From the NCBI GenBank assembly GCA_964406735.1, contig CAYOSU010000001.1:109924-173923 (forward strand): 64,000 bases of DNA, written 5' to 3'. A program made the translations under genes and the position numbers. Source of the DNA: an uncultured Clostridia bacterium (GTDB lineage: Bacteria; Bacillota; Clostridia; Christensenellales; CAMQZB01). The notes beneath the pieces are model-generated. The model did no database searches, was not told the origin of the DNA, and saw only the letters and a program-made list of their open reading frames with translations. Below, in pieces: positions 1,126 to 20,875 of the stretch. How positions within the stretch are numbered: the first letter of the stretch is position 1; each line of letters starts with the position of its first letter.

Positions 1126-1694
1126 TGGACTACGGGAAGTACGGCGACAACGAGCTTGTAGCTTTATCCCGAACGGACGATACCGCTTTAGAGGAGCTTT
1201 TGATGCGCCATAAGGGCATGGTAAAAGCCCTTGCCAGGCGTTATTACGTCAACGGCGGCGACGTCGAGGATCTCATTTCCGAGGGTATGATAGGGCTTTG
1301 CAAGGCAGTACGCTCCTTTGAAGAGGGAAGCGGTGCAAGCTTTACGACGTATGCGTACCTGATAGTCAATCGAGACATGATAAACGCCGTAAAAAAACAT
1401 GCTTCGCAGAAGAACGAGCCACTCAATAATGCGTTGCCGATACGTGACGCAGAGATAGAGAGCGGTGGCGTAGATCCCGAAGAACCCGTACTTTTCGAAG
1501 ACGATAACAAGCGTCTTAACGAGAGGCTGAAAGCCATTCTCAGTTCGCTTGAATACGAGGTAATACTAAGCTATCTTGACGGCTTGTCATACTCAGAGAT
1601 AGCCGAAAAGCTCAAGGTGTCGCAAAAATCGGTAGATAACGCTCTTTCACGGGCGAAGAAAAAAATAGCAGAAAATTTAGGGGAGCAGGAATAA
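1125..1694 (+). CDS. sigH: Sporulation-type sigma factor SigH
   Basis: The internal Met at 1125 (MDYGKYGDNELVALSR...) overlaps the rlmB stop. The region 2 motif DVEDLISEGMIGLCKAVRSFEE and a region 4 HTH (SYSEIAEKLKVSQKSVDNALSRAKKKI) closely resemble Bacillus SigH. The rlmB-sigH adjacency is as in Bacillus. Confidence 0.8.
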   Translation: MDYGKYGDNELVALSRTDDTALEELLMRHKGMVKALARRYYVNGGDVEDLISEGMIGLCKAVRSFEEGSGASFTTYAYLIVNRDMINAVKKHASQKNEPLNNALPIRDAEIESGGVDPEEPVLFEDDNKRLNERLKAILSSLEYEVILSYLDGLSYSEIAEKLKVSQKSVDNALSRAKKKIAENLGEQE

Positions 1695-1695
1695 T

Positions 1696-3198
1696 ATGTC
1701 GTATCTTGCGTTATACAGAAAATATAGACCGACGGACTTTGATTCCGTTATCGGGCAGGAACATATAACCACCACCTTAAAAAATCAGATAAAGACGGGC
1801 AGGGCAGGACATGCGTACCTATTCACCGGAACACGCGGAACGGGCAAGACGACCGTTGCGAAGATATTTGCAAGAGCTGTCAACTGCCTTGATCCTATTG
1901 GCGGAAGCCCTTGCGGCAAATGCAAAATGTGTGAGATGCTGTCAAGACCCGAGGCAGTCGATATAATCGAGCTCGATGCTGCGTCAAACAACGGCGTTGA
2001 CGATTTGAGAAATCTTCTCGACAACGTAGCGTTCCAGCCTGCAGTAGGCAGATATAAGGTATATATCATCGACGAGGTCCATATGCTTTCGATAAACGCC
2101 TTCAATGCGCTGTTAAAAACGCTTGAAGAACCGCCAAAGCACGTTATATTCATTCTTGCGACGACCGAAGTGCAGAAGATCCCTGCGACCATACTTTCAA
2201 GGTGCATGCGCTTTGACTTCAAACTTATATCCACCGAGCGCATATACGAGAATATCAAGCGTATCTACGCCGAGATAGGCAAGGATGCGGAAGATGAAGC
2301 AATATATGCGATAGCAAAGGCAGGCGAGGGAAGTATGCGAGACGCACTCTCGATAGCCGATATGTGCATTGCCGTTACGGACGGAAAACTCACATACGAC
2401 AAGGTTTCTGAGACCGTAGGTAACTTATCGAGAGAGAGCCTGTTTGCTCTTTATAATAGCCTGATAAGCGGCGACGGCGCAGGTGTATTTGCGGCAGTAG
2501 GCGAGTTCGTAAAGCAAGGCAAGAATATTCCGATAGTCGCAAGAGACATCGCTTCGTTGTTCAGAGACCTGTTGTACGTGAAATATACGGGGAATGCTGA
2601 CGGATTGAAACTGCCGAGCGAGATAAAAGAGAAAATGGAAGAGCTTTCGGCGGCGGCAAGCACACAATACTTGCTCAGAGGTCTTGACGTGTTAAACGAG
2701 CTTGACGGCAAACTGAGGAGCAGCCTTTCGCAGAGAATACTTCTCGAGACTGCGCTTTTGAAGCTTGCCGACGTCAAGAACGATTTATCCGTATCTGCTC
2801 TCAATAGGCGTATTGCGATGCTTGAAAACGGCAAGGTAGTAGTTCCGCTCAAGCCCGTTCAGGAGAACGCTGAAAGCGAAAAGACGGAGCTTTCTCCGAG
2901 CGTTGTCAAGGCAAATATGATAGGCGAGCTTCGCCGTCAAGGCGAGAGAATAGCGTTTGCCGCAATGACCCACACTGAGTGCGAGGTAGACGATAAAAAG
3001 GTCAGGGTAATGTGCCAAAGTGCGGATTCTGCCAAGGTGTTGCGAGAAAAGAGTGAGCTTCTTTGCGGAGCAGTCAGGCGCATAGGTATAACGGAAGTTG
3101 AATTTGCGGTCAAGCAAAAAGAAGACACGAGTGAAGAACAAAAAAAAATAAATAAGGCGAAGGCTCTTTCGGGAGATATGCTTGAAATAAAGGAGTAA
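1696..3198 (+). CDS. dnaX: DNA polymerase III subunit gamma/tau
   Basis: 500 aa with Walker A GTRGTGKTT, Walker B IIDEVHML, the SRC motif ILSRCMRFDF and a zinc module CGKCKMC. Confidence 0.95.
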   Translation: MSYLALYRKYRPTDFDSVIGQEHITTTLKNQIKTGRAGHAYLFTGTRGTGKTTVAKIFARAVNCLDPIGGSPCGKCKMCEMLSRPEAVDIIELDAASNNGVDDLRNLLDNVAFQPAVGRYKVYIIDEVHMLSINAFNALLKTLEEPPKHVIFILATTEVQKIPATILSRCMRFDFKLISTERIYENIKRIYAEIGKDAEDEAIYAIAKAGEGSMRDALSIADMCIAVTDGKLTYDKVSETVGNLSRESLFALYNSLISGDGAGVFAAVGEFVKQGKNIPIVARDIASLFRDLLYVKYTGNADGLKLPSEIKEKMEELSAAASTQYLLRGLDVLNELDGKLRSSLSQRILLETALLKLADVKNDLSVSALNRRIAMLENGKVVVPLKPVQENAESEKTELSPSVVKANMIGELRRQGERIAFAAMTHTECEVDDKKVRVMCQSADSAKVLREKSELLCGAVRRIGITEVEFAVKQKEDTSEEQKKINKAKALSGDMLEIKE

Positions 3199-3203
3199 AG
3201 ACA

Positions 3204-3554
3204 ATGGGAAAAGGTTTTTCTAATTACAGAAAGCAGGTATTAGGCGGTGGCGGCGGAATGCCCAATATGCAGCAGCTCATGGAGCAGGCGCAGAAGATGC
3301 AGCAGGACCTTGAGGAAGCTAAAGCAAAGATAGCCGAGGCTGAGTTCGAGGGCACGAGCGGCGGCGACGCGGTAAAAGTAACGCTTTCGGGCGAGAAGAA
3401 GCTCGTTTCGCTTCAATTAAAACCCGAGATAGTCGATCCCGAAGACGTAGAGATGCTCGAAGATCTCATCATTGCGGCATATAACGACGCTTTTGATAAG
3501 GCAGAGAAATTCACGCAGGAGACTATGCCCAGCGGAACAGAGGGACTAATTTAA
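3204..3554 (+). CDS. ybaB: Nucleoid-associated protein YbaB/EbfC
   Basis: 116 aa, sitting in the conserved dnaX-ybaB-recR order, with the typical MQQLMEQAQKMQ N-terminus. Confidence 0.9.
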   Translation: MGKGFSNYRKQVLGGGGGMPNMQQLMEQAQKMQQDLEEAKAKIAEAEFEGTSGGDAVKVTLSGEKKLVSLQLKPEIVDPEDVEMLEDLIIAAYNDAFDKAEKFTQETMPSGTEGLI

Positions 3555-4144
3555 TGGAGAATTATCCAAAGGACATACAAAAGCTCATCAATGAGTTCAC
3601 CCGACTTCCGGGGGTAGGCAAACGCACGGCAACGAGGTATGCTTATAAGGTCATTGACATGACTGAGGATGAGGCGGAAAAGCTTGCAACGGCAATAATG
3701 AACGTCAAGCAAAACATAAGGTACTGCAAAGTGTGCGGCAATTTCACCGACAGCGACGAGTGCGAGATATGCAAACACCGCGATCATTCGGTGATCTGCG
3801 TCGTAAAAGAACCAAAAGATTTGGCTGCCATGGAAAGAACGGGAAGCTACAAAGGCGTGTACCACGTTTTGCACGGATGCATATCACCGCTTTATAACGT
3901 ATCACCCGACGATATACGCATAAGGGAGCTTCTTGCGAGAATAAACGATAAGACAAGCGAGGTAATAATTGCGCTCAACCCCGACGTAGAGGGAGATGCG
4001 ACCGCTATGTATATCGGCAGATTGCTAAAACCTCTCGGCGTAAAGGTATCGAGGCTTGCTCACGGTATTCCTATCGGTCAGGATATAGAGTTTGCCGACG
4101 AGGTTACCCTTTCAAGGGCAATGGCGGAGAGAAAGGAACTTTAA
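3554..4144 (+). CDS. recR: Recombination protein RecR
   Basis: 196 aa with HhH LPGVGKRTATR, a C4 zinc finger CKVCGNFTDSDECEIC, and a Toprim region. Confidence 0.95.
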   Translation: MENYPKDIQKLINEFTRLPGVGKRTATRYAYKVIDMTEDEAEKLATAIMNVKQNIRYCKVCGNFTDSDECEICKHRDHSVICVVKEPKDLAAMERTGSYKGVYHVLHGCISPLYNVSPDDIRIRELLARINDKTSEVIIALNPDVEGDATAMYIGRLLKPLGVKVSRLAHGIPIGQDIEFADEVTLSRAMAERKEL

Positions 4145-4145
4145 T

Positions 4146-4760
4146 ATGGGAAATATCGCAATAACGTACTTAGGGCATTCGTGCTTTGTCGTAGAAAAAG
4201 ACGGTTTCAGATTGTGTATTGACCCGTTCCATAACGTAAAAGGCTACAAGGATGTTTGCGTTGGAGTAAATAAAGTTCTTTGTACGCACGAGCACTTTGA
4301 CCATGCATATAGAGAGGGGTGTCTTGCGCTTTTGAATCTCGTCGAAGACCCGTTTGAAGTCAAAAAAATAACCGTTTCTCACGACGATAAAGGCGGTACG
4401 CTTCGCGGTATGAGTGACATAATAGTTATTCAAAGCGAGGGGATAAAGATAGCGCATTTCGGCGATATAGGCGTTATTCCAAGCGAAGAGGTGCTTAACC
4501 GTCTTGATGGACTTGATGTTGCGTTGGTGCCCGTCGGCGGCACTTATACCGTTGACGCAAACACGGCAAAATCGCTCGTTGAACGCATAAGCCCCAAAAT
4601 AACCGTTCCTATGCACTACAGATGGGGCGATAAGGGCTTTGACAATATCGCAACGCTCAGCGAGTTCACTTCACTTTTTGAAAAAGTAACGGACGACGGC
4701 GTGACAACGCTTGAGCTTCCGTCAAAAGAAAGCGGCATCGTCGTATTGACGCCGCAATAA
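4146..4760 (+). CDS. MBL-fold metallo-hydrolase
   Basis: The internal Met MGNIAITYLGHSCF lies just after the recR stop, and the metal motif THEHFDHAY is present. The track ORF beginning at 4092 overlaps recR. Confidence 0.7.
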   Translation: MGNIAITYLGHSCFVVEKDGFRLCIDPFHNVKGYKDVCVGVNKVLCTHEHFDHAYREGCLALLNLVEDPFEVKKITVSHDDKGGTLRGMSDIIVIQSEGIKIAHFGDIGVIPSEEVLNRLDGLDVALVPVGGTYTVDANTAKSLVERISPKITVPMHYRWGDKGFDNIATLSEFTSLFEKVTDDGVTTLELPSKESGIVVLTPQ

Positions 4761-4771
4761 AGAAAAAAATC

Positions 4772-4806
4772 AAACGCTTCGGACTTCGAAGCGTTTGTCT
4801 GTTTTT
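4772..4806. terminator. Bidirectional intrinsic terminator
   Basis: Hairpin AAACGCTTCG-GACTT-CGAAGCGTTT, flanked by an A-run upstream and T-rich sequence downstream, between convergent genes. Confidence 0.7.
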
Positions 4807-9198: not shown

Positions 9199-10077
9199 TT
9201 ATCTGTGGTCTCCAAGGCAGAATGCTGCGATAGTGCCGGGGCCTGAATGTGCGCCGATGACGGGGTCGATGTATTGGAACATAAATTCCTTGACCTTGAC
9301 TTTAGAGGCTATTCTGTCTGCAAGTATGTGTGCGTCGTCTATGCAATCTCCGTGTCCGATAATGACAAGTTGCTCTTCAGGATGCTGATCTTTTATTCTT
9401 TCGCAGATGTTGTCTGCGATCTCAAAGAGAGATTTCTTTCTGCCGATAACGTTTTTGATGCCAACGAGCTTGCCCTCGTCGTTCGTGAACATAAGGGGCT
9501 TGATCTTAGCCATATTAGCGATAATAAAGCTTGCCTTGCTCACTCTGCCGCCCTTAAAAAGCCAACGCAAGTCGTCGACGGAGAAATAATGGCAAACACG
9601 CATTTTATTGGATTCGGCCCATTCTGCGACCTCCTCCAACGATTTGCCCTCCAAACGCATCTTTGCGATGTACATAACGAAAAGTCCTTCGCCTATAGAG
9701 GCACAAAGCGAGTCGACAACGACGATCTTTCTATCGGGATACTTCGCTTGAAGCTCGTTTACCGCAGCCTTGCTGCACTCGTACGTCTGCGATAAAGCGG
9801 ACGAAAATGCGATATAAAGAACGTCGTTTCCCTTAACAAGTTCTTTTTCAAACTCTTCGACGAACGTTGCGGTGTTTATGCAGGAAGTAGAGATGTTTTT
9901 CTCTTCACGAAGAAGCTGATAGATCTTCTTATAGCCCTCTTCGTTGTTCAATTTTTCGGCGGAGACAGCCTCGCCGCCCTCGATGATCATCGTCATCGGG
10001 ATGACTTTAAGTTGAAATTCTTCGATCTTTTCCTTTGGAAGATTGCAGCACGAATCCGTAAAAAGTGCGTATGACAT
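9199..10077 (-). CDS. degV: DegV family fatty-acid-binding protein
   Basis: The start MSYALFTDSCCNLP is preceded by AGGAGCAATTATATA. The protein has DegV-like length and N-terminus, and contains SSALSQTY. Confidence 0.8.
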   Translation of the reverse strand: MSYALFTDSCCNLPKEKIEEFQLKVIPMTMIIEGGEAVSAEKLNNEEGYKKIYQLLREEKNISTSCINTATFVEEFEKELVKGNDVLYIAFSSALSQTYECSKAAVNELQAKYPDRKIVVVDSLCASIGEGLFVMYIAKMRLEGKSLEEVAEWAESNKMRVCHYFSVDDLRWLFKGGRVSKASFIIANMAKIKPLMFTNDEGKLVGIKNVIGRKKSLFEIADNICERIKDQHPEEQLVIIGHGDCIDDAHILADRIASKVKVKEFMFQYIDPVIGAHSGPGTIAAFCLGDHR

Positions 10078-10230
10078 TATATAATTGCTCCTAAAAGTGA
10101 AATTATTTCTGCGGCGAAACGTCGGCATTCAGAGTTGACTGTTATAAAGACTTAAAAAGCCTTGACCCTACGAGCGTTGAATGAAGTATCCTCATTCAGG
10201 CGTTGCCTTTCGTTCGCCCTTTGCGATTTT

Positions 10231-10260
10231 ATTCTATGCCCAAACGGGGGAAATAATCAA
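10231..10260 (-). promoter_or_regulatory. Putative sigma-A promoter of degV
   Basis: Minus strand TTGATT (10260-10255), an 18-nt spacer, then TAGAAT (10236-10231). Confidence 0.45.
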
Positions 10261-10506: not shown

Positions 10507-11133
10507 ATGCTTGAAGAAGATTTAAGAAAACGCGTTGCGGAAAATTTAACGCATTACAGAAAATTATCGGGACTTACGCAAGGTCAGCTTGCCGAGGCAC
10601 TCAACTATTCCGACAAATCCGTGTCAAAGTGGGAGCGAGGAGAGGGGCTCCCCGATCTTGTTGTAATGATGAAGCTTGCCGAGATATACAACATCTCGCT
10701 CAATGACCTCGTCGCCGATAAGCCCAAAAAGCGCATACCCGACATGCGCAGGCAAAAAATACTTATCACCTTGCTGTCGGTAGGAATCGTATGGCTCGTT
10801 GCGGTAACGCTGTTCGTATTACTGCCGCTGATATTCCCCGACTTCAAACGAGCGTACCTGTTTTACATATACGCAATACCTGTAACGGCGATAGTCGTGC
10901 TGGTGTTCTCAAGCGTATGGGGCAACAGAATAGTGTGGTTTGCATCGACGACGGTGCTATGCTGGGGAATAATACTCTCCGTTTATATCACCTTCATAGA
11001 ACAAAACATCTGGACTCTGTTTTTGATAGGAATTCCTATGCAAGCGCTCATCATCATGTGGTTTTTCTTCAGGAGCGTCTTCGTGCGCGTACGAGATAGG
11101 CTGAATAAGCTTGGAGAAAAGGAAGAAAAATAA
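10507..11133 (+). CDS. XRE-family HTH regulator fused to a C-terminal multi-pass membrane domain
   Basis: The N-terminal Cro/C1-type HTH is LTQGQLAEALNYSDKSVSKWERGEGLPD. About four hydrophobic helices follow. Confidence 0.75.
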   Translation: MLEEDLRKRVAENLTHYRKLSGLTQGQLAEALNYSDKSVSKWERGEGLPDLVVMMKLAEIYNISLNDLVADKPKKRIPDMRRQKILITLLSVGIVWLVAVTLFVLLPLIFPDFKRAYLFYIYAIPVTAIVVLVFSSVWGNRIVWFASTTVLCWGIILSVYITFIEQNIWTLFLIGIPMQALIIMWFFFRSVFVRVRDRLNKLGEKEEK

Positions 11134-11154
11134 CAATAAATTGCAACAAAAGAT

Positions 11155-11196
11155 AAACGCCTACGAGGCGGAAAAGCCGACGCAGGCGTTTTTTTA
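11155..11196 (+). terminator. Intrinsic terminator
   Basis: AAACGCCT ... AGGCGTTT stem followed by a T-run. Confidence 0.65.
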
Positions 11197-11290: not shown

Positions 11291-11319
11291 AAAAATAAAA
11301 CCCGCCTTGTTCAGGCGGG
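11291..11319 (-). terminator. Intrinsic terminator of the candidate sRNA
   Basis: The minus strand reads CCCGCC-TGAACAA-GGCGGG followed by TTTTATTTTT. Confidence 0.75.
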
Positions 11320-11521
11320 GACTACGATTACCTATTCAGTTGTTTCGGCAAAGTCTTGAAAACTCAATTACTATTTGCAGAAACTCTTACTGCGACAATT
11401 TTTTCAAGCACCTTACCTACCGACAAAATGTTGCGTGTTCATCGGTGGATACCTCCTTGGAAAGTATTTAGTCCGTGCCCTTTCAGGCGATCTTATTTCA
11501 TCGGACCGTACCTCCTTGTTC
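11293..11521 (-). ncRNA. Candidate structured small RNA (~230 nt) of unrecognised class
   Basis: It is bounded by a near-consensus promoter and a clean terminator and has no plausible ORF. It contains a duplicated 22-nt module CAAGGAGGTA-N4-CCGATGAA and three hairpins. Confidence 0.45.
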
Positions 11522-11527
11522 ACTTAC

Positions 11528-11555
11528 AGTATAGCATAGATATTCAAAAAGTCAA
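11528..11555 (-). promoter_or_regulatory. Putative sigma-A promoter of the candidate sRNA
   Basis: Minus strand TTGACT (11555-11550), a 16-nt spacer, then TATACT (11533-11528). Confidence 0.55.
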
Positions 11556-11597
11556 TACCTTTTTTAAAATTCACATATTTATGCGAATTACTGTAGA

Positions 11598-12370
11598 TTA
11601 TTTTGTATAACCTATTATTTCTGTAGAAACAGTTTTTATGATTTCTTCAGGGATATCGGAAATTTTTATTGTGTATGATTTATTTAGGCGTGGATTAAAA
11701 ATGCCTAAGTATTTTATGTTATTAAATTCTTTGTATATAGAGTGCTTTCCCATTAAATAATAGATTAATAGTTGTAATGTGTGTTTGTTTGTTGGTGGGT
11801 TTTTAGATACTTTAATATCAAATAAAGTATCTTTAGATAAATAATCGCCGTCGCCTTTATCGATTACGGCTGTATAACCACCTTCAAAAGTGAACCCCGA
11901 TTTGATAATTGTTGTTGTATTTAAGAAGGCAACAGATCTATTAACCATTATTTTAATGTTTTCGATTGTTTCTTTGTTAAGTGTTATTAATGAGACTGGC
12001 ATAAAACTAGATACCCCTGCACGGTAACAGACATCAAAGCCTGAAAGTCTACACGCGCTGTCAATTGATATATCGTCTAAACCATTGATAGAAGTCAAAA
12101 GGTATAATACTTGGCTAAAATTAGGAATTGCATGTTCCATCAATGCGATTTTAGCCCCTTTAAGTGAGATGTCGAAAGCTTCTTCTACGGGTGTTCCTAA
12201 CATAAATCTTGTCAAATAGTCGACAGCCATTCCAACAATATTTGCAGTTGTAGATTCTTTTGGGGTTAATTCATATTCATCGAAAAACTGTTTTTCTAAT
12301 AATTGTTTGGGATTAATGTACCCCCCCTCGGTTGTTTGATTTGGTTAATTCTCTGAGTTACAGATGCCAT
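11598..12370 (-). pseudogene. RecB/Cas4-like PD-(D/E)xK nuclease gene interrupted by a frameshift at a G7 tract (phase-variable, recoded or decayed)
   Basis: GGAGG + ATG (12370) opens a 24-codon frame that ends just after the C7/G7 run at 12321-12327. The 210-aa track ORF continues in the -1 frame. Ordered motifs are GMAVDYL, IDKGDGDYL, LFDIKVSK and QLLIYY. The segment is visibly AT-rich. Confidence 0.6.
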
Positions 12371-12390
12371 AAATGTACCTCCAATTTATT

Positions 12391-13734
12391 TTATTTCCCA
12401 AGGCAGAGCTTGGAGAAAATCGTGTCGATGATATGTTCCGTTGCAGTCGTACCTGTTATTTCGCCGTACTTTTCCCAGGCGGTTCTTATATCGATAATAA
12501 GGCAGTCTGCCAGATTGTCTTCAATGCCTGAAAGTGCACTTTTGATAGCTGCCAACGCTTCTTGCAGAGCGATAAGCTGTCTTTTCGAGGATATGACTGC
12601 GCTTTCTGTCGAAAGCAGGTCTCCTGCACCAGAAAGAGAATAAAGCCGTTCCTTCAACTCGTCGATATGCTCGTTGTTTTTCGCCGATACGTTTACGACA
12701 TCATACGACTCAAATTTATCGCAAAGCTTGTCTTCGAGGTCGGTCTTATTTTTGACAACGATTACGTGCTTTTCATCGAGGCTTTTGAGTATCTCCTCGT
12801 CTTCGGGGGAAAGCTCCTCGCTAGAATCGAACACTGCAAGGACGATGTCGGCAGTTTCGAGCGTGTTTTTCGCAATATTTACACCTATCTTCTCAATGGT
12901 GTCCTCAGTCTCTCTTATTCCTGCGGTATCGAAGAAATTAAAGGTAATACCCTTGTAGTTGTATGACGAAGTAAGTACGTCTCTCGTCGTGCCTGCAATG
13001 TTGGTTACGATCGCTCTGTCAAAGCCCAAAATAGCGTTCAGAAGCGAGCTTTTGCCTACGTTTGGCTTTCCTACTATCGCTACCGATATTCCGTTTTTAA
13101 CGGCACTTCCAAGCGAATATGTCGATATGAGCCGTTTGAGAGTGTCCCTTTGGCTTTTCAGCGTGTCGGTAACTTCCGGTACGTTGACTGCCGGCATATC
13201 CTCTTCAGGGTAGTCGAACGACGCCTCTACGTACGCTATAACGGTCTCAAGCTCTTCCTGGAGCTTAGTCGTAACGGTAGCGATCTCACCCTTGAATTGC
13301 GAATATGCAAGCCTTTCTGCGGCGATCGATTCGGCGTTTATCATGTCTGCCATCCCCTCGACGCTCGTCAAGTCCATTTTGCCGTTCAAGAACGCACGGC
13401 GAGAGAACTCTCCGTTCGTTGCAAGCCTTGCGCCCTTTGAGATGCACTCCGAGAGTACGTTTTCGACGATAACTCTGCCGCCGTGGCATTGAAATTCCAC
13501 GACGTCCTCACCTGTAAAGCTTCTCGGCGCTTTGAAATAAACGCAAAGCGCTTTGTCTTTAAGCTCCGCCGTCGTTACCGTTCCAAGGTACATAACGTTC
13601 GGCTTTTTGTTCGTTTCTCTGCACGAGAAAATAGCGTCGGCGATGTCAAACGCTTTGTCTCCCGACAGTCTGACTATGCCTACCGCACCTAAGCCTTGCG
13701 GCGTTGAAATTGCTACTATCGTATCGTTTGTCAT
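12391..13734 (-). CDS. mnmE: tRNA modification GTPase MnmE
   Basis: 447 aa with G-domain motifs GKPNVGKSSLLN, DTAGIRET and NKTDL, and a C-terminal CLGK. Confidence 0.95.
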   Translation of the reverse strand: MTNDTIVAISTPQGLGAVGIVRLSGDKAFDIADAIFSCRETNKKPNVMYLGTVTTAELKDKALCVYFKAPRSFTGEDVVEFQCHGGRVIVENVLSECISKGARLATNGEFSRRAFLNGKMDLTSVEGMADMINAESIAAERLAYSQFKGEIATVTTKLQEELETVIAYVEASFDYPEEDMPAVNVPEVTDTLKSQRDTLKRLISTYSLGSAVKNGISVAIVGKPNVGKSSLLNAILGFDRAIVTNIAGTTRDVLTSSYNYKGITFNFFDTAGIRETEDTIEKIGVNIAKNTLETADIVLAVFDSSEELSPEDEEILKSLDEKHVIVVKNKTDLEDKLCDKFESYDVVNVSAKNNEHIDELKERLYSLSGAGDLLSTESAVISSKRQLIALQEALAAIKSALSGIEDNLADCLIIDIRTAWEKYGEITGTTATEHIIDTIFSKLCLGK

Positions 13735-18472: not shown

Positions 18473-20875
18473 ATGTTATTACCGCTCAGTTGGTTAAAAG
18501 AATACGTAGACGTCAAGGTCTCTCCCGAGGAGCTTGCAACAAAGCTTTTGTCGGTAGGCTTCGAGGTCGAGGGAATAGAATATAAGGGCAAGGATATAAG
18601 TGGCGTAGTCGTCGGCAGAATAGAAAAGGTTGAAAAGCACGAGAACTCCGATCACTTGCAGACCTGTCAGGTAAACGTCGGCGAGGAAAACGGTGGCGTA
18701 GTACAGATAGTAACGGGCGCAAGCAACATCTTCGAGGGTGCGCTTATTCCTGCAGCTCTCGTCGGTGCAAAGCTTCCCGGCGGCATCAAGATAGAAAAAG
18801 CAAAGCTTCGTGGCGTACCGTCGTTCGGAATGATGTGCTCAGGCGGAGAACTCAAGGTCTCCGAGGCAGAGTACGAGGGCGCAGGTGTCAACGGGATACT
18901 CATTTTGAAGGACGATGCGAAAATAGGTCAGGACATCAAGGAATATTTGGGCCTTGACGACGTAATTTTCGACATTTCCGTAACGGCGAACAGACCCGAT
19001 TGCCAGTCAATACTCGGAATGGCAAGAGAGGTTGCTGCTGTATTGGGAGAAAAGGTAAAATATCCCGACTTCACTTATGAAGAGGATAAAAAGTCCTCGA
19101 TAAAGGACTACCTGACGGTCGAAGTGGAAAACTCCGTCGTATGCCCGAAATACGTTTCCAAGGTGGTTGACGATGTCAAGTTCGTTGAAACGCCTAAGTG
19201 GATGAAAAAGAGGCTTGCACTCGTAGGCCACAACTCGATAGACATAATCGTAGACATCACGAATTACGTTCTGGTCGAGATGGGACAGCCCATGCACGCA
19301 TTCGACGTAGCAAACCTTGAGGACAGAAAGATAGTTGTCCGCAACGCAAGGGCGGGCGAAACGCTCAAACTTTTGAACGAACAGGAAGTCGAGCTCAACG
19401 ACAGTGTGCTCGTTATCGCAGACGGCAAAAAGCCCGTTGCGATAGCAGGTATAATGGGCGGCGAGCATAGCGGAATAAACGCCGAGACGAAGACCATTGC
19501 GTTCGAGAGTGCGAAGTTTCTTCGTGACGTAGTAAGAAAAACGTCGAAGAGCCTTGGAGTATTCTCTGATTCGTCGTCGAGATTCCAAAAGGGCGTTGAC
19601 GTATACACCGTAGATTTGGCAATGAAGCGTGCGCTTCATTTGATAACGGAAACGGGCGCAGGAAGAATTATCGGTCTTGACTACGATATCAAGCGTGAAA
19701 ACGCTATGAATAAGACCTTGACGTGCAACGTGACGGATATAAACAAGGTCCTTGGTATAGATATTCCCGAAGAAGAGATAATCAAGATACTCGAAGCGTT
19801 GGAATTCGGTTGCTCGGTAAAAGACGGCGTTTTGACATGCAAAGTGCCCTCGTATAGAGAGGACGTAGACAACTTCACCGACCTTGCTGAGGAAGTAATA
19901 AGGTACTATGGCTATCAGCATATCACGGGCACGATGATGCCGACGGCAAAGATAACGCACGGCGGATATTCGCACAAGCAGGCTCTTCTTAACGAGATAA
20001 AATACGCTCTCGTCAAAAAGGGCTATTACGAGGCTATCACATACTCGTTCACGACGCCGAAGATGCTTGCAAACCTTTCACTTCTCGACAAGCCTAAGCT
20101 CAACGATCCCGTCAAGATACTTAACCCTCTCGGCGAAGATGTCAGCATCATGAGAACGTCGTTAACGCACAGCATGCTCGAAGTGTTAGCAAATAACTAT
20201 AAGAAGAGCAACGACGAGGCAAAGATATTTGAAGTCGCAAATATATACGTCAAGTCCGACGATATAAACGCCGAGCTTCCCGTAGAGATACCTACCCTTT
20301 GCGTAGGCGAATACGGCGAGAAGTCCGATTTCTACACAATTAAAGGTGCGCTCGACGCATTGTTTGGCGCAGTAGGCAAGGAATATGAGCTCGTTCGCTC
20401 TGAAAGAGAGTTCTTGCATCCCGGTCGCAGTGCAGACGTATACGTTGACGGCAAGAATTTGGGATATTTGGGCGAAGTTCACCCTGATATAACGGAAAAG
20501 TACGGCACCCCCGCAAGAGCGCTCGTAATGGAGATATCCCTTCCTTATCTTATTGATAGCAATGCGGAAGAGATCAAGTTCTCCGCATTCAGTAGGTTCC
20601 AGCCTGCCGAGAGAGACCTTGCTGTCATCGTAAACGACGATGTTCCGATGAAAGCGGTCCTCGATATAATAAAAGAGAGTGCAGGCAAGCTTTTGACCGA
20701 TGTCAAGCTGTTCGACGTATATCAGGGCGAGCAGGTAGGCTTCAACAAAAAGAGCCTTGCGTTCAGACTCAGATTTGCGCTCCTTGACAAGACCTTGACT
20801 GATAAAGAGATCGAGGCTGTCATGGACAAGATAATAAATAATATTGAAGACAAGGTCGGAGGAAAACTCAGATAA
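18473..20875 (+). CDS. pheT: Phenylalanine--tRNA ligase beta subunit
   Basis: 800 aa directly after pheS, with the N-terminal tRNA-binding domain LSWLKEYV. Confidence 0.97.
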   Translation: MLLPLSWLKEYVDVKVSPEELATKLLSVGFEVEGIEYKGKDISGVVVGRIEKVEKHENSDHLQTCQVNVGEENGGVVQIVTGASNIFEGALIPAALVGAKLPGGIKIEKAKLRGVPSFGMMCSGGELKVSEAEYEGAGVNGILILKDDAKIGQDIKEYLGLDDVIFDISVTANRPDCQSILGMAREVAAVLGEKVKYPDFTYEEDKKSSIKDYLTVEVENSVVCPKYVSKVVDDVKFVETPKWMKKRLALVGHNSIDIIVDITNYVLVEMGQPMHAFDVANLEDRKIVVRNARAGETLKLLNEQEVELNDSVLVIADGKKPVAIAGIMGGEHSGINAETKTIAFESAKFLRDVVRKTSKSLGVFSDSSSRFQKGVDVYTVDLAMKRALHLITETGAGRIIGLDYDIKRENAMNKTLTCNVTDINKVLGIDIPEEEIIKILEALEFGCSVKDGVLTCKVPSYREDVDNFTDLAEEVIRYYGYQHITGTMMPTAKITHGGYSHKQALLNEIKYALVKKGYYEAITYSFTTPKMLANLSLLDKPKLNDPVKILNPLGEDVSIMRTSLTHSMLEVLANNYKKSNDEAKIFEVANIYVKSDDINAELPVEIPTLCVGEYGEKSDFYTIKGALDALFGAVGKEYELVRSEREFLHPGRSADVYVDGKNLGYLGEVHPDITEKYGTPARALVMEISLPYLIDSNAEEIKFSAFSRFQPAERDLAVIVNDDVPMKAVLDIIKESAGKLLTDVKLFDVYQGEQVGFNKKSLAFRLRFALLDKTLTDKEIEAVMDKIINNIEDKVGGKLR

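What the first reader, a model, noticed from the sequence alone, without database searches (positions are those of the whole stretch)
11598..12382. AT-rich islet after mnmE: RecB/Cas4-like nuclease gene split exactly at a G7 homopolymer
About 1.1 kb between the mnmE stop (12391) and the convergent XRE gene is visibly AT-rich. Hand counts of single 60-nt lines give roughly 28% GC at 11641-11700, against roughly 48% inside mnmE at 12601-12660. The ORF track shows only a 210-aa piece starting at Met 12230, which has no convincing SD. A far better start lies 140 nt upstream: GGAGG (12382-12378), then ATG (12370-12368). That frame (MASVTQRINQIKQPRGG) enters a run of seven G (C7 on the plus strand, 12321-12327) and stops 9 codons later (TAG 12298-12296). 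The frame of the 210-aa ORF is open from 12344 downward. So one extra G (8 rather than 7), or a -1 ribosomal slip on the heptamer G GGG GGU, joins both parts into a 258-aa protein. That protein carries the ordered motifs of RecB/Cas4-type PD-(D/E)xK nucleases: GMAVDYL, IDKGDGDYL, LFDIKVSK (D-x-K) and QLLIYY (QxxxY). I saw no other G/C homopolymer of this length in the window. A foreign-looking nuclease gated by a homopolymer is what phase-variable defence or restriction genes look like. The alternatives are recoding, recent decay, or a sequencing error.
Basis: partly seen in the sequence, partly recalled or inferred. Interest (0 to 1): 0.6.

Follow-up and report, generated by a model that had tools for sequence, protein, structure and literature searches.

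The report
Frameshifted foreign nuclease gene after mnmE
A small foreign gene for a RecB/Cas4-like nuclease (an untested phage-defence candidate family) sits just after mnmE and is broken by a missing G in a run of Gs; every sampled strain carries the broken form, so it is most likely a young dead gene, not an on/off switch.

Summary
On the minus strand, GGAGG and ATG (12370) open a frame that enters a G7 run (12327-12321) and stops at 12298-12296. One extra G restores a 257-aa protein. That protein matches PADLOC candidate family PDC-S61 end to end (E=1e-106). The frameshift lies inside the family's near-invariant QPRGGY motif. The model (pLDDT 90) resembles Cas4/RecB/Dna2-type PD-(D/E)xK nucleases but lacks their iron-sulfur cysteines.

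Islet-free relatives show an 805-nt single-gene cassette (11587-12391) replacing 46 nt. It begins at the mnmE stop codon and has no promoter of its own.

Sequencing error is very unlikely. Four independent read-set assemblies carry the break: G7 in three (one a distinct strain) and G6 in a more diverged strain. No in-frame allele (G8 or G5) and no close intact homologue exists in about 15 billion proteins.

Long G runs are not a family trait. Run lengths in 56 homologues fit neutral codon usage. No frameshift-stimulating RNA structure follows the tract.

Best reading: a recently acquired defence-candidate nuclease gene, inactivated by slippage in an accidental G8 run and inherited broken (about 0.6). 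True phase variation remains possible (about 0.2). The case is ordinary but well documented.

The parts
11587..12391 (.). Foreign single-gene cassette ('islet'), 805 nt at about 33% GC. It replaces 46 nt of spacer found in islet-free relatives. It starts at the third base of the mnmE stop codon (TAA here, TAG in empty sites) and ends just before the core sequence TCGCATAAATATGTG.
   Evidence: Alignment of occupied and empty sites (A3). Empty sites were found through the identical XRE protein and in deeper relatives. GC content.
11598..12370 (-). Pseudogene of a PDC-S61-family RecB/Cas4-like PD-(D/E)xK nuclease. It reads as 257 aa if the G run is 8.
   Evidence: PADLOC PDC-S61 E=1e-106, residues 1-256 against profile 1-251 of 253. 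2,461 homologues, typically 250-259 aa, cover 99% of the restored query. AF2 model pLDDT 90, pTM 0.88. Fold hits.
12378..12382 (-). Shine-Dalgarno GGAGG, 7 nt upstream of the ATG. Only 20 nt separate the mnmE stop from the ATG, and there is no promoter or terminator between them.
   Evidence: Sequence. The promoter/terminator scan finds nothing between 12391 and 12370.
12296..12370 (-). 5' fragment: 24 codons (MASVTQRINQIKQPRGGTLIPNNY) followed by TAG. The first 17 residues are the family's conserved N-terminus.
   Evidence: Translation and family alignment A1.
12321..12327 (-). G7 homopolymer within the codons for the conserved R-G-G (AGG GGG GG-). This is the site of the frameshift. It is G7 in the window and three Logan contigs, and G6 in a fourth.
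   Evidence: Q13, P14, G17 and Y18 are invariant, and R15 and G16 are at least 90% conserved.
11598..12320 (-). 3' part of the gene in the shifted frame (residues 18-257 of the restored protein). Gene callers report only the 210-aa ORF from ATG 12230.
   Evidence: The exact 210-aa product P0001 is on 5 contigs.
11760..11855 (-). Catalytic core motifs, all intact: G173-D174-G175-D176 (motif II), D185-x-K187 (motif III) and Q200xxxY204 (QxxxY).
   Evidence: These are invariant columns in A1. The region matches the PADLOC RT-associated PD-(D/E)xK model at 8.8e-14 and Cas4 weakly at 0.049.
12391..13734 (-). mnmE (447 aa), the upstream core gene. The cassette abuts its stop codon and is probably co-transcribed with mnmG-mnmE.
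   Evidence: ORF list, Pfam annotation of the same gene on Logan contigs, and no terminator before 11319-11301 on this strand.

Best explanation
An 805-nt single-gene cassette was acquired by one sub-lineage of an uncultured Clostridia bacterium. It landed directly behind the mnmE stop codon, where it has a Shine-Dalgarno site but no promoter, so it would be transcribed by read-through from mnmG-mnmE (inferred).

The gene encodes a stand-alone RecB/Cas4-like PD-(D/E)xK nuclease of PADLOC family PDC-S61. That family is a phage-defence candidate identified by genomic association and has not been tested experimentally.

In this lineage the conserved R-G-G of the N-terminal QPRGGY motif was encoded as AGG-GGG-GGG. 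This is a G8 run that arose through ordinary codon choice. Replication slippage removed one G (G8 to G7). That truncates the protein after 24 codons and leaves the catalytic part without a start signal.

The broken allele was then inherited by all sampled strains. One strain lost a further G (G6). The locus is therefore a young pseudogene. The rest of the reading frame and all catalytic residues are still intact only because too little time has passed.

Shown: gene identity, fold, cassette borders, tract lengths in five assemblies, and the absence of long tracts in homologues. Inferred: the ancestral G8, co-transcription, loss of function, and a defence role for the intact protein.
For: - Identity: PDC-S61 matches at E=1e-106 over the full length. 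The N-terminus is conserved, and QPRGGY is near-invariant.
- Fold: pLDDT 90. The best PDB matches are ACE1/Cas4-family, Dna2, AdnAB, RecB, MGME1 and Exo5. The best viral matches are RecB-family and Cas4 exonucleases.
- Acquisition: relatives with the identical XRE protein and ~95-96% DNA identity in the flanking regions have 46 nt in place of the cassette. Deeper relatives (87%, 85%, 80% MnmE identity) also lack it.
- The break is real and inherited: G7 in the window and in contigs from SRR14160765 and SRR14160763 (100% identical over 15.9-20.6 kb). G7 also in SRR14160743 (18 SNPs in 15.9 kb). G6 in SRR22923250 (65 SNPs in 20.6 kb). The most parsimonious history is a G7 ancestor followed by one further contraction.
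- No in-frame allele: the best full-length hit in the 15-billion-protein collection is 57% identical, and the 210-aa fragment is alone in its cluster.
- The tract is accidental: at this motif, 56 R-G-G homologues show run lengths 2-8 with counts 34/5/8/6/2/1/0. Family codon usage predicts 32/5.3/10/5.3/0.9/1.5/0.3.
- G/C runs are the local indel hotspots: 2 of 6 G/C runs of 5 or more differ between strains, against 1 of 117 A/T runs (Fisher p=0.006).
- Mild excess divergence: 7 of 78 columns that are at least 90% conserved are changed, against a family median of 2. This is the second highest of 80 sequences.
Against: - The remainder of the ORF (240 codons at ~33% GC) has no stop codon or second frameshift, and the catalytic residues are intact. 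That is also what a maintained, switchable gene would look like. At 0.1-0.3% strain divergence only about 2.5 substitutions are expected in the islet, so this does not discriminate.
- The tract is the only difference within the islet between strains, and it is a single step from the in-frame length. Reversion is therefore mechanistically easy.
- Only five assemblies from two apparent run series (by accession numbering) were available, and only consensus sequences. Minority G8 sub-populations would be invisible.
- The family is found partly in defence and mobile contexts, a gene class in which homopolymer switching is common (background knowledge).
Confidence: 0.6

Rival explanations
1. Phase-variable (contingency) defence gene. 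The G tract switches reversibly between in-frame (G8, ON) and out-of-frame (G7/G6, OFF) lengths by slipped-strand mispairing. All sampled populations happen to be predominantly OFF, for example because the nuclease is costly when no phage is present.
For: Tract length differs between near-identical strains, G7 versus G6, while the rest of the islet is 100% identical. G/C runs are the indel-prone sites in this genome. The ORF is otherwise intact, with all catalytic residues. The family is a PADLOC defence candidate, and some homologues sit beside type I methyltransferases, KilA-N/PDC-S22, integrases and KAP/AAA_5 NTPases.
Against: - None of the 5 copies is ON, and G6 is two steps from ON.
- G7 is unchanged across strains separated by 18 SNPs in 15.9 kb, so switching is not fast.
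- No close intact allele exists in about 15 billion proteins.
- Long tracts are not enriched or conserved at this motif in 80 homologues, and the distribution fits neutral codon usage.
- A tract of 7-8 G is at the short end of characterised contingency tracts (background knowledge).
Confidence: 0.2
2. Recoding. The G7 allele still yields some full-length nuclease, either by -1 ribosomal frameshifting on G GGG GGU or by transcriptional slippage adding a G. The split would then be a low-level expression control.
For: A -1 slip on G_GGG_GGU gives exactly the family consensus ...QPRGGYINPK... (sequence). The heptamer has the X XXY YYZ form.
Against: - No stable RNA structure lies 3' of the tract: MFE is -15.9 against -19.4 +/- 3.2 for shuffles, z=+1.1.
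- The tract length is not conserved. The G6 allele in SRR22923250 cannot be corrected by a -1 slip.
- No homologue uses a split gene at this site; all 80 retained loci read through in frame.
- The G-only heptamer is not among the efficient bacterial slippery sites as far as I know (background knowledge, not tested).
Confidence: 0.08
3. The 210-aa ORF from ATG 12230 is itself the functional product: an N-terminally truncated nuclease.
For: It contains D51 and all the core motifs. It is the ORF that gene callers report.
Against: There is no Shine-Dalgarno site before ATG 12230. It lacks 47 residues, including the near-invariant SVTxRIxxIKQPRGGY block, D31, E39 and a modelled beta-strand at residues 25-28. 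Almost all of the 120 best homologues cover 99-100% of the restored 257-aa query, so they start at the upstream Met; the exceptions are the 210-aa fragment itself and one hit at 93%.
Confidence: 0.05
4. Sequencing or assembly error: the true tract is G8 and the gene is intact.
For: Homopolymers are error-prone. The two indels nearest the islet between the window and SRR22923250 are both in G/C runs, with the Logan contig shorter by one each time.
Against: G7 is reproduced in three separate Logan assemblies from three runs plus the deposited assembly. Two of those assemblies are 100% identical to the window over 15.9-20.6 kb, including all A/T runs. No assembly gives G8. The variant tract (G6) comes with 65 SNPs, so it belongs to a different strain and is not noise.
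Confidence: 0.03

Closest known systems
PADLOC phage-defence candidate PDC-S61 (single-gene candidate, PADLOC-DB v2.0.0)
   Same: The full-length HMM match is E=1e-106. Length (~250 aa), motifs and single-gene organisation are the same. There are 2,461 relatives, mainly in Bacillota, with some in Actinomycetota, Mycoplasmatota and methanogenic archaea.
   Different: This copy is frameshifted. It is one of the most divergent members: the nearest relative is 58% identical, against a family median nearest-neighbour identity of 78%. The family has no demonstrated function. The only paper mentioning it lists it as a PADLOC hit in S. thermophilus ST55 and gives no functional result for it (PMC11514479).
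Cas4-family / RecB-like PD-(D/E)xK nucleases (CRISPR Cas4, solo-Cas4, ACE1, AddB/AdnAB/RecB nuclease domains, Dna2, Exo5, MGME1)
   Same: Same fold: the best PDB hits are ACE1 9iac at E=8.7e-4, Dna2, AdnAB, RecBCD, MGME1 and Exo5, and viral RecB/Cas4 exonucleases score down to 1.5e-5. The motif order is the same: D ... D-x-K ... QxxxY. The N-terminal S-x-T...QPRGGY block sits where these enzymes have a motif I recall as 'CPRxxY'. That comparison is from memory and was not tested.
   Different: The Cas4 'iron staple' is absent. Cas4-family proteins have one N-terminal and three C-terminal cysteines that hold a 4Fe-4S cluster (PMC12094033). Here there are only two cysteines (C107, C115), and the N-terminal position is Gln. 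There is no Pfam or NCBIfam match. The gene is not next to cas, Argonaute or helicase genes in the window. TM-scores are modest (0.35-0.59).
Homopolymer-driven phase variation of restriction-modification and other contingency genes (poly-G/C tracts in Campylobacter, Helicobacter, Neisseria, Haemophilus; background knowledge)
   Same: A G/C homopolymer lies near the 5' end of a defence-type gene. Tract length is polymorphic between strains, and one step restores the frame.
   Different: No ON allele was observed. The tract is short (6-7). It is not conserved or enriched in homologues. The OFF length is stably inherited across diverged strains.
Programmed -1 frameshifting / transcriptional slippage genes (dnaX, IS3-family transposases; background knowledge)
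   Same: A heptamer of X XXY YYZ form whose -1 slip yields the conserved protein sequence.
   Different: There is no downstream stimulatory structure, the site is not conserved in length between strains, and intact homologues are encoded in a single frame.

Membership tests
PADLOC PDC-S61 | Significant full-length match to the PDLC05052 profile | tested here: met
   E=1.1e-106, 354 bits, residues 1-256 against profile 1-251 of 253, using the +1G-restored sequence.
PADLOC PDC-S61 | Intact, expressible single ORF | tested here: not met
   The frame is broken at the G7 run (G6 in one strain) in all 5 known copies.
PADLOC PDC-S61 | Anti-phage activity | not testable with these tools
   The family is a candidate by association only. 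No functional test was found (PMC11514479).
PD-(D/E)xK nuclease superfamily, RecB/Cas4-like branch | Catalytic D ... (D/E)-x-K plus QxxxY motifs, conserved and in order | tested here: met
   D174, D185, K187, Q200 and Y204 are invariant in a 20-sequence alignment and present in the window gene.
PD-(D/E)xK nuclease superfamily, RecB/Cas4-like branch | Restriction-endonuclease-like alpha/beta core fold resembling RecB/Cas4 nucleases | tested here: met
Cas4 family sensu stricto | Four conserved cysteines (one N-terminal, three C-terminal) coordinating a 4Fe-4S 'iron staple' (PMC12094033) | tested here: not met
   There are only two Cys in the protein (C107, C115), and only C107 is invariant. The N-terminal position is Gln13, and there are no C-terminal Cys.
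Cas4 family sensu stricto | Sequence-profile match to Cas4 models | tested here: not met
   PADLOC Cas4 scores only E=0.049 over 57 residues. Pfam and NCBIfam give no match.
Phase-variable contingency locus | Tract-length polymorphism that includes both in-frame (ON) and out-of-frame (OFF) alleles | tested here: not met
   Lengths observed are 7, 7, 7, 7 and 6. No G8 or G5 allele appears in any assembly or in the protein collection.
Phase-variable contingency locus | Tract longer or more conserved than expected from coding constraints | tested here: not met
   Homologue run lengths fit the codon-usage expectation, and 34 of 56 R-G-G homologues have runs of 2. One G7 in 64 kb compares with 1.83 expected.
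Phase-variable contingency locus | Within-population length heterogeneity and a high switching rate | not testable with these tools
   This needs raw reads or culture; only consensus contigs were available.
Programmed -1 ribosomal frameshift site | Slippery heptamer giving the correct product | tested here: met
   G GGG GGU; a -1 slip yields QPRGGYINPK, which equals the family consensus.
Programmed -1 ribosomal frameshift site | Downstream stimulatory structure and evolutionary conservation of the site | tested here: not met
   The fold z-score is +1.1. The tract is G6 in another strain. Homologues are unsplit.

The most novel reading that the evidence does not exclude
The G tract is a working contingency switch. 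On this reading an uncultured Clostridia bacterium keeps a stand-alone, iron-sulfur-free Cas4/RecB-like nuclease (PDC-S61). The gene is transcriptionally hitch-hiked onto the mnmG-mnmE operon and is toggled by G7/G8 slippage. The sampled populations would be mostly OFF because the nuclease is costly. This would be the first functional handle on PDC-S61 and an example of homopolymer phase variation of a single-gene nuclease defence in Clostridia.
Probability: 0.15. Interest if true: 0.5.

Novelty: new member of a known kind. Interest (0 to 1): 0.22.

Why it matters
As it stands this is an ordinary event: a horizontally acquired accessory gene killed by slippage in a homopolymer that arose from codon choice.

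Its value is mostly practical:
- It shows that the '210-aa hypothetical protein' called in public assemblies is the tail of a 257-aa PDC-S61 nuclease.
- It gives clean insertion borders for a minimal 805-nt defence-candidate cassette with no mobility genes. This suggests such single genes move by homologous replacement between relatives.
- It characterises PDC-S61 as a Cas4/RecB-like nuclease that has lost the iron-sulfur 'staple'.

If read-level data revealed G8 sub-populations, the locus would become a simple natural ON/OFF system for testing whether PDC-S61 really defends against phages.

Tried and rejected
- Pfam, NCBIfam and PDB sequence searches with the restored protein gave nothing. 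A family-profile search of PDB sequences gave only weak uS13 hits (E=0.1) to residues 73-124, possibly a helix-hairpin-helix-like segment, which I did not pursue. PHROGs gave one weak family of unknown function.
- An exact-match scan of JGI metagenome contigs for the tract flank found no further copies. The GTDB species-representative scan returned only distant homologues (58% identity or less), not the window's own species.
- The first look-up of the 210-aa fragment with 3-kb flanks showed only one contig. Repeating it with 10-kb flanks exposed four.
- Exact cluster look-ups gave no organism names. The MnmE homologue search places the host only as an uncultured Clostridia/Bacillota lineage.
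- I considered a classical type II R-M nuclease. I rejected it because the cassette contains no methyltransferase and homologues have no conserved partner (7 type I MTases among 146 neighbours).
- I considered whether the downstream promoter/terminator element belongs to the islet. I rejected this because it is core DNA, present in all islet-free relatives.
- The Rfam hit to icaR 3'UTR at 11020-11195 (29 bits against a gathering score of 369) is noise.
Full report
**1. The observation**

- The mnmE stop is at 12393-12391.
- GGAGG is at 12382-12378 and ATG at 12370-12368.
- A run of seven G occupies 12327-12321.
- TAG at 12298-12296 follows 24 codons (MASVTQRINQIKQPRGGTLIPNNY*).
- The frame of the 210-aa ORF (11598-12230) is open upstream to 12344.

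GC is 32.6% across 11598-12382, against 47.9% in mnmE and 45.9% for the window.

This is the only G/C run of 7 or more in the window. That is not unusual: dinucleotide-preserving shuffles contain 1.83 +/- 1.69 such runs, and 75 of 100 have at least one.

**2. What the gene is**

The restored protein has no Pfam, NCBIfam or PDB-sequence match. It matches PADLOC's phage-defence candidate PDC-S61 from end to end: E=1.1e-106, residues 1-256 on profile positions 1-251 of 253. There is a secondary match of residues 130-244 to an RT-associated PD-(D/E)xK model (8.8e-14) and a weak match to Cas4 (0.049).

A search of about 5.8 billion clustered proteins found 2,461 relatives. They are typically 250-259 aa and cover 99% of the restored query. 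In an alignment of 20 of them, the N-terminal block SVTxRIxxIKQPRGGY is among the best-conserved segments: Q13, P14, G17 and Y18 are invariant, and R15 and G16 are at least 90% conserved. The upstream 47 codons therefore belong to the gene, and the frameshift lies inside a conserved motif.

An AlphaFold2 model built on that alignment is confident (pLDDT 90, pTM 0.88). The Foldseek results were:
- **PDB:** the top matches all belong to one group: the Argonaute-associated Cas4-family enzyme ACE1 (E=8.7e-4), Dna2, AdnAB, RecBCD, MGME1, Exo5, RecE and Cas4.
- **Viral models:** 13 matches at E of 1e-3 or better, all RecB-family or Cas4-family exonucleases or helicase-nuclease fusions.

The fold call 'RecB/Cas4-like PD-(D/E)xK nuclease' is supported. 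The protein is not a Cas4-family member in the strict sense. That family is defined by one N-terminal and three C-terminal cysteines holding a 4Fe-4S 'iron staple' (PMC12094033). This protein has only two cysteines (C107, C115), and Gln occupies the N-terminal position.

**3. What the islet is**

The exact XRE protein of the window occurs on contigs from four other read sets (L004-L007). Their flanking DNA is about 95-96% identical to the window, and they have no gene between XRE and mnmE. Aligning occupied and empty sites gives these borders:
- The foreign segment is window 11587-12391 (805 nt).
- It begins at the last base of the mnmE stop codon (TAA here, TAG in empty sites).
- It ends 11 nt after the nuclease stop codon.
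- It replaces 46 nt of unrelated spacer.

The segment contains only a Shine-Dalgarno site, the gene and a few flanking bases. I saw no integrase, inverted repeats or target duplication. This points to exchange by homologous recombination through the conserved flanks (inference).

Deeper relatives of the host (MnmE 87%, 85% and 80% identical; L103-L107) also lack any gene there. The cassette is therefore a gain in one sub-lineage.

No promoter or terminator lies between mnmE and the ATG, and the first terminator on that strand is at 11319-11301. The gene would be transcribed by read-through from mnmG-mnmE (inference).

The host is an uncultured Clostridia/Bacillota organism. The nearest named MnmE is 58% identical, and a spore gene, yunB, lies nearby.

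**4. Is the break real, and does the tract vary?**

The exact 210-aa fragment is recorded on five contigs. With wider flanks, four independent Logan assemblies became readable. The tract lengths are:

| Source | Divergence from the window | Tract |
|---|---|---|
| Window | (reference) | G7 |
| SRR14160765 | 100% identical over 20.6 kb | G7 |
| SRR14160763 | 100% identical over 15.9 kb | G7 |
| SRR14160743 | 18 SNPs in 15.9 kb | G7 |
| SRR22923250 | 65 SNPs and 3 indels in 20.6 kb | G6 |

Within the islet, the tract is the only difference between the window and the SRR22923250 contig.

All three indels between that strain and the window lie in homopolymers: A7/A6 at 4763, G5/G4 at 10246 and C7/C6 at 12321. 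Two of the six G/C runs of 5 or more vary, against one of 117 A/T runs (Fisher p=0.006).

No assembly has G8 or G5. The protein collection holds no intact close relative: the next best hit is 57% identical, and the fragment is alone in its cluster.

Three conclusions follow:
- The frameshift is not an assembly artefact.
- The tract is mutable on the time-scale of strain divergence.
- The out-of-frame state is inherited. The simplest history is an already broken G7 ancestor with one further contraction to G6.

**5. Is the tract a designed switch?**

I fetched 80 homologous loci from GTDB species representatives and read the codons of the QP(R)GGY motif. The G-run there is 2 nt in 51 loci, 3 in 10, 4 in 10, 5 in 6, 6 in 2 and 7 in one (L039, AGG GGG GGA, in frame). 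It is never 8.

For the 56 loci with R-G-G, the counts for lengths 2-8 are 34/5/8/6/2/1/0. The Arg and Gly codon frequencies of the family's own genes predict 32/5.3/10/5.3/0.9/1.5/0.3. Long runs are neither enriched nor conserved. An AGG-GGG-GGG ancestor is simply the roughly 0.5% tail of neutral codon choice in a family with thousands of members.

The window's protein also departs from the consensus at 7 of 78 columns that are at least 90% conserved. The family median is 2, and this is the second highest of 80 sequences. The changes are mostly conservative, plus G153-P154 to T-T. This hints at relaxed constraint or simply a divergent lineage.

**6. Recoding**

A -1 slip on G GGG GGU would give exactly the consensus ...QPRGGYINPK.... 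Against this:
- The 116 nt around and after the tract fold no better than shuffles (-15.9 against -19.4 +/- 3.2 kcal/mol, z=+1.1).
- The G6 allele cannot be rescued by a -1 slip.
- No homologue is split at this site.

I rate programmed recoding as unlikely.

**7. Context of the family**

I scanned the nearest neighbours (146 ORFs) of the 80 homologues in one batch. No partner gene is conserved. A minority are defence or mobile-element genes: 7 type I methyltransferases (HsdM), 6 KilA-N proteins (which equal PADLOC PDC-S22), plus integrases, NikA, DEAD helicases and KAP and AAA_5 NTPases.

Some homologues are 340-409 aa and carry an extra HTH_17 (excisionase-type) domain. Eleven loci are on IMG/VR viral contigs.

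The only paper mentioning PDC-S61 lists it as a PADLOC hit in Streptococcus thermophilus ST55 and gives no functional result for it (PMC11514479). 'Defence nuclease' is therefore a reasonable but unproven functional label.

**8. Verdict**

Its favoured biological reading, a homopolymer-gated phase-variable defence gene, is not supported by the data available. Every known copy is OFF, one copy is two steps from ON, the OFF allele is stably inherited, and the tract is an accident of codon usage, not a family feature.

| Reading | Probability |
|---|---|
| Young pseudogene | ~0.6 |
| Reversible switching with OFF predominating | ~0.2 |
| Recoding (-1 frameshift or transcriptional slippage) | ~0.08 |
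| The 210-aa truncated protein is the functional product | ~0.05 |
| Sequencing or assembly error | ~0.03 |

Reversible switching cannot be excluded without read-level data. The finding is ordinary. It is a new, broken member of a catalogued candidate family.

**9. Seen in passing**

Immediately downstream of the islet, in core DNA, lies a strongly conserved element of about 230-240 nt:
- It has a near-consensus promoter (TTGACT-16 nt-TATACT with an extended TG, 11555-11528) and a strong terminator (11319-11301).
- It has no Rfam match.
- It shows one variant in about 285 nt between strains whose flanks differ by about 5%.
- It is retained downstream of mnmE in relatives at 89%, 86% and 76% identity, even where the next gene changes.
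- It folds better than 198 of 200 shuffles (z=-2.87).
- Six of 58 consensus pairs show compensatory changes in a five-sequence alignment.
- It contains two copies of AGGAGGUAnnnnCCGAUGAA (a perfect SD plus AUG) heading mini-ORFs (MK*, MNTQHFVGR*).

This is a candidate new small RNA or micro-peptide locus. It may be more interesting than the pseudogene itself.

Noticed in passing
window 11297-11555, minus strand: A conserved element of about 230-240 nt in core DNA between the islet and the convergent XRE gene. It has a near-consensus promoter (TTGACT-16 nt-TATACT with TG), a strong terminator and no Rfam match. It contains two copies of AGGAGGUAnnnnCCGAUGAA heading mini-ORFs MK* and MNTQHFVGR*. 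It is nearly invariant between strains whose flanks differ by ~5%. It is kept downstream of mnmE in relatives at 89/86/76% identity even where the next gene differs. Fold z=-2.87, and 6 of 58 consensus pairs are compensatory. It is a candidate new sRNA or micro-peptide locus.
   Followed up: partly
window 10242-10246 (intergenic, between degV at 9199-10128 and XRE at 10507-11133): A second polymorphic G run: G5 in the window and G4 in the SRR22923250 contig. Together with the G7/G6 tract, 2 of 6 G/C runs of 5 or more vary between these strains, against 1 of 117 A/T runs (p=0.006). This suggests G/C-run-specific slippage, or a G-specific sequencing bias in that one run.
   Followed up: partly
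window 1637-4773 and 19324-19522 (compared with L099): The 65 SNPs between the window and the SRR22923250 strain are strongly clustered: 49 fall within 3.1 kb and 10 within 0.2 kb. This looks like imported recombination tracts, not clock-like divergence.
   Followed up: no
window 12391-12393 compared with L103:4345-4400, L106:4345-4420, L107:4345-4420: In deeper relatives mnmE is followed by its own GC-hairpin terminator. The window lineage and its islet-free sisters (L004-L007) lack that hairpin, so mnmG-mnmE transcription probably runs on into the cassette and the sRNA-like element.
   Followed up: no
homologue loci L018:1865-3740, L020:5193-7074, L036:5193-6789, L050:5178-7047: A subset of homologues has a 268-273-aa ORF immediately upstream; it overlaps the nuclease ORF by 14 nt in three loci and is separated by 1 nt in L050. 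Three of the four (not L036) are long forms (348-362 aa), probably with a C-terminal HTH_17 domain. Six of the 146 neighbours are KilA-N proteins, which equal PADLOC PDC-S22. This may be a two-gene variant of the system. I did not verify which ORFs gave the KilA-N hits.
   Followed up: no
restored protein residues 73-124 (window ~12155-12000, minus strand): The family profile weakly resembles the helix-hairpin-helix region of ribosomal protein uS13 (E=0.1-0.6) across the conserved GLDDxSIxNACKLVGYDVCFRAG segment. This may be a nucleic-acid-binding insert in the nuclease.
   Followed up: no
L048:3610-4245: Another family member (Lachnospiraceae MAG UBA9414) has only a 211-aa ORF and the most deviations at conserved columns (12 of 78). 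It is probably an independent decayed copy.
   Followed up: no
window 12148-12175, minus strand: A promoter-like site (TCGACA-16 nt-TAAAAT, 10 of 12 matches) lies inside the nuclease gene. The number of such sites in the region is no more than in shuffles, so it is probably chance.
   Followed up: no
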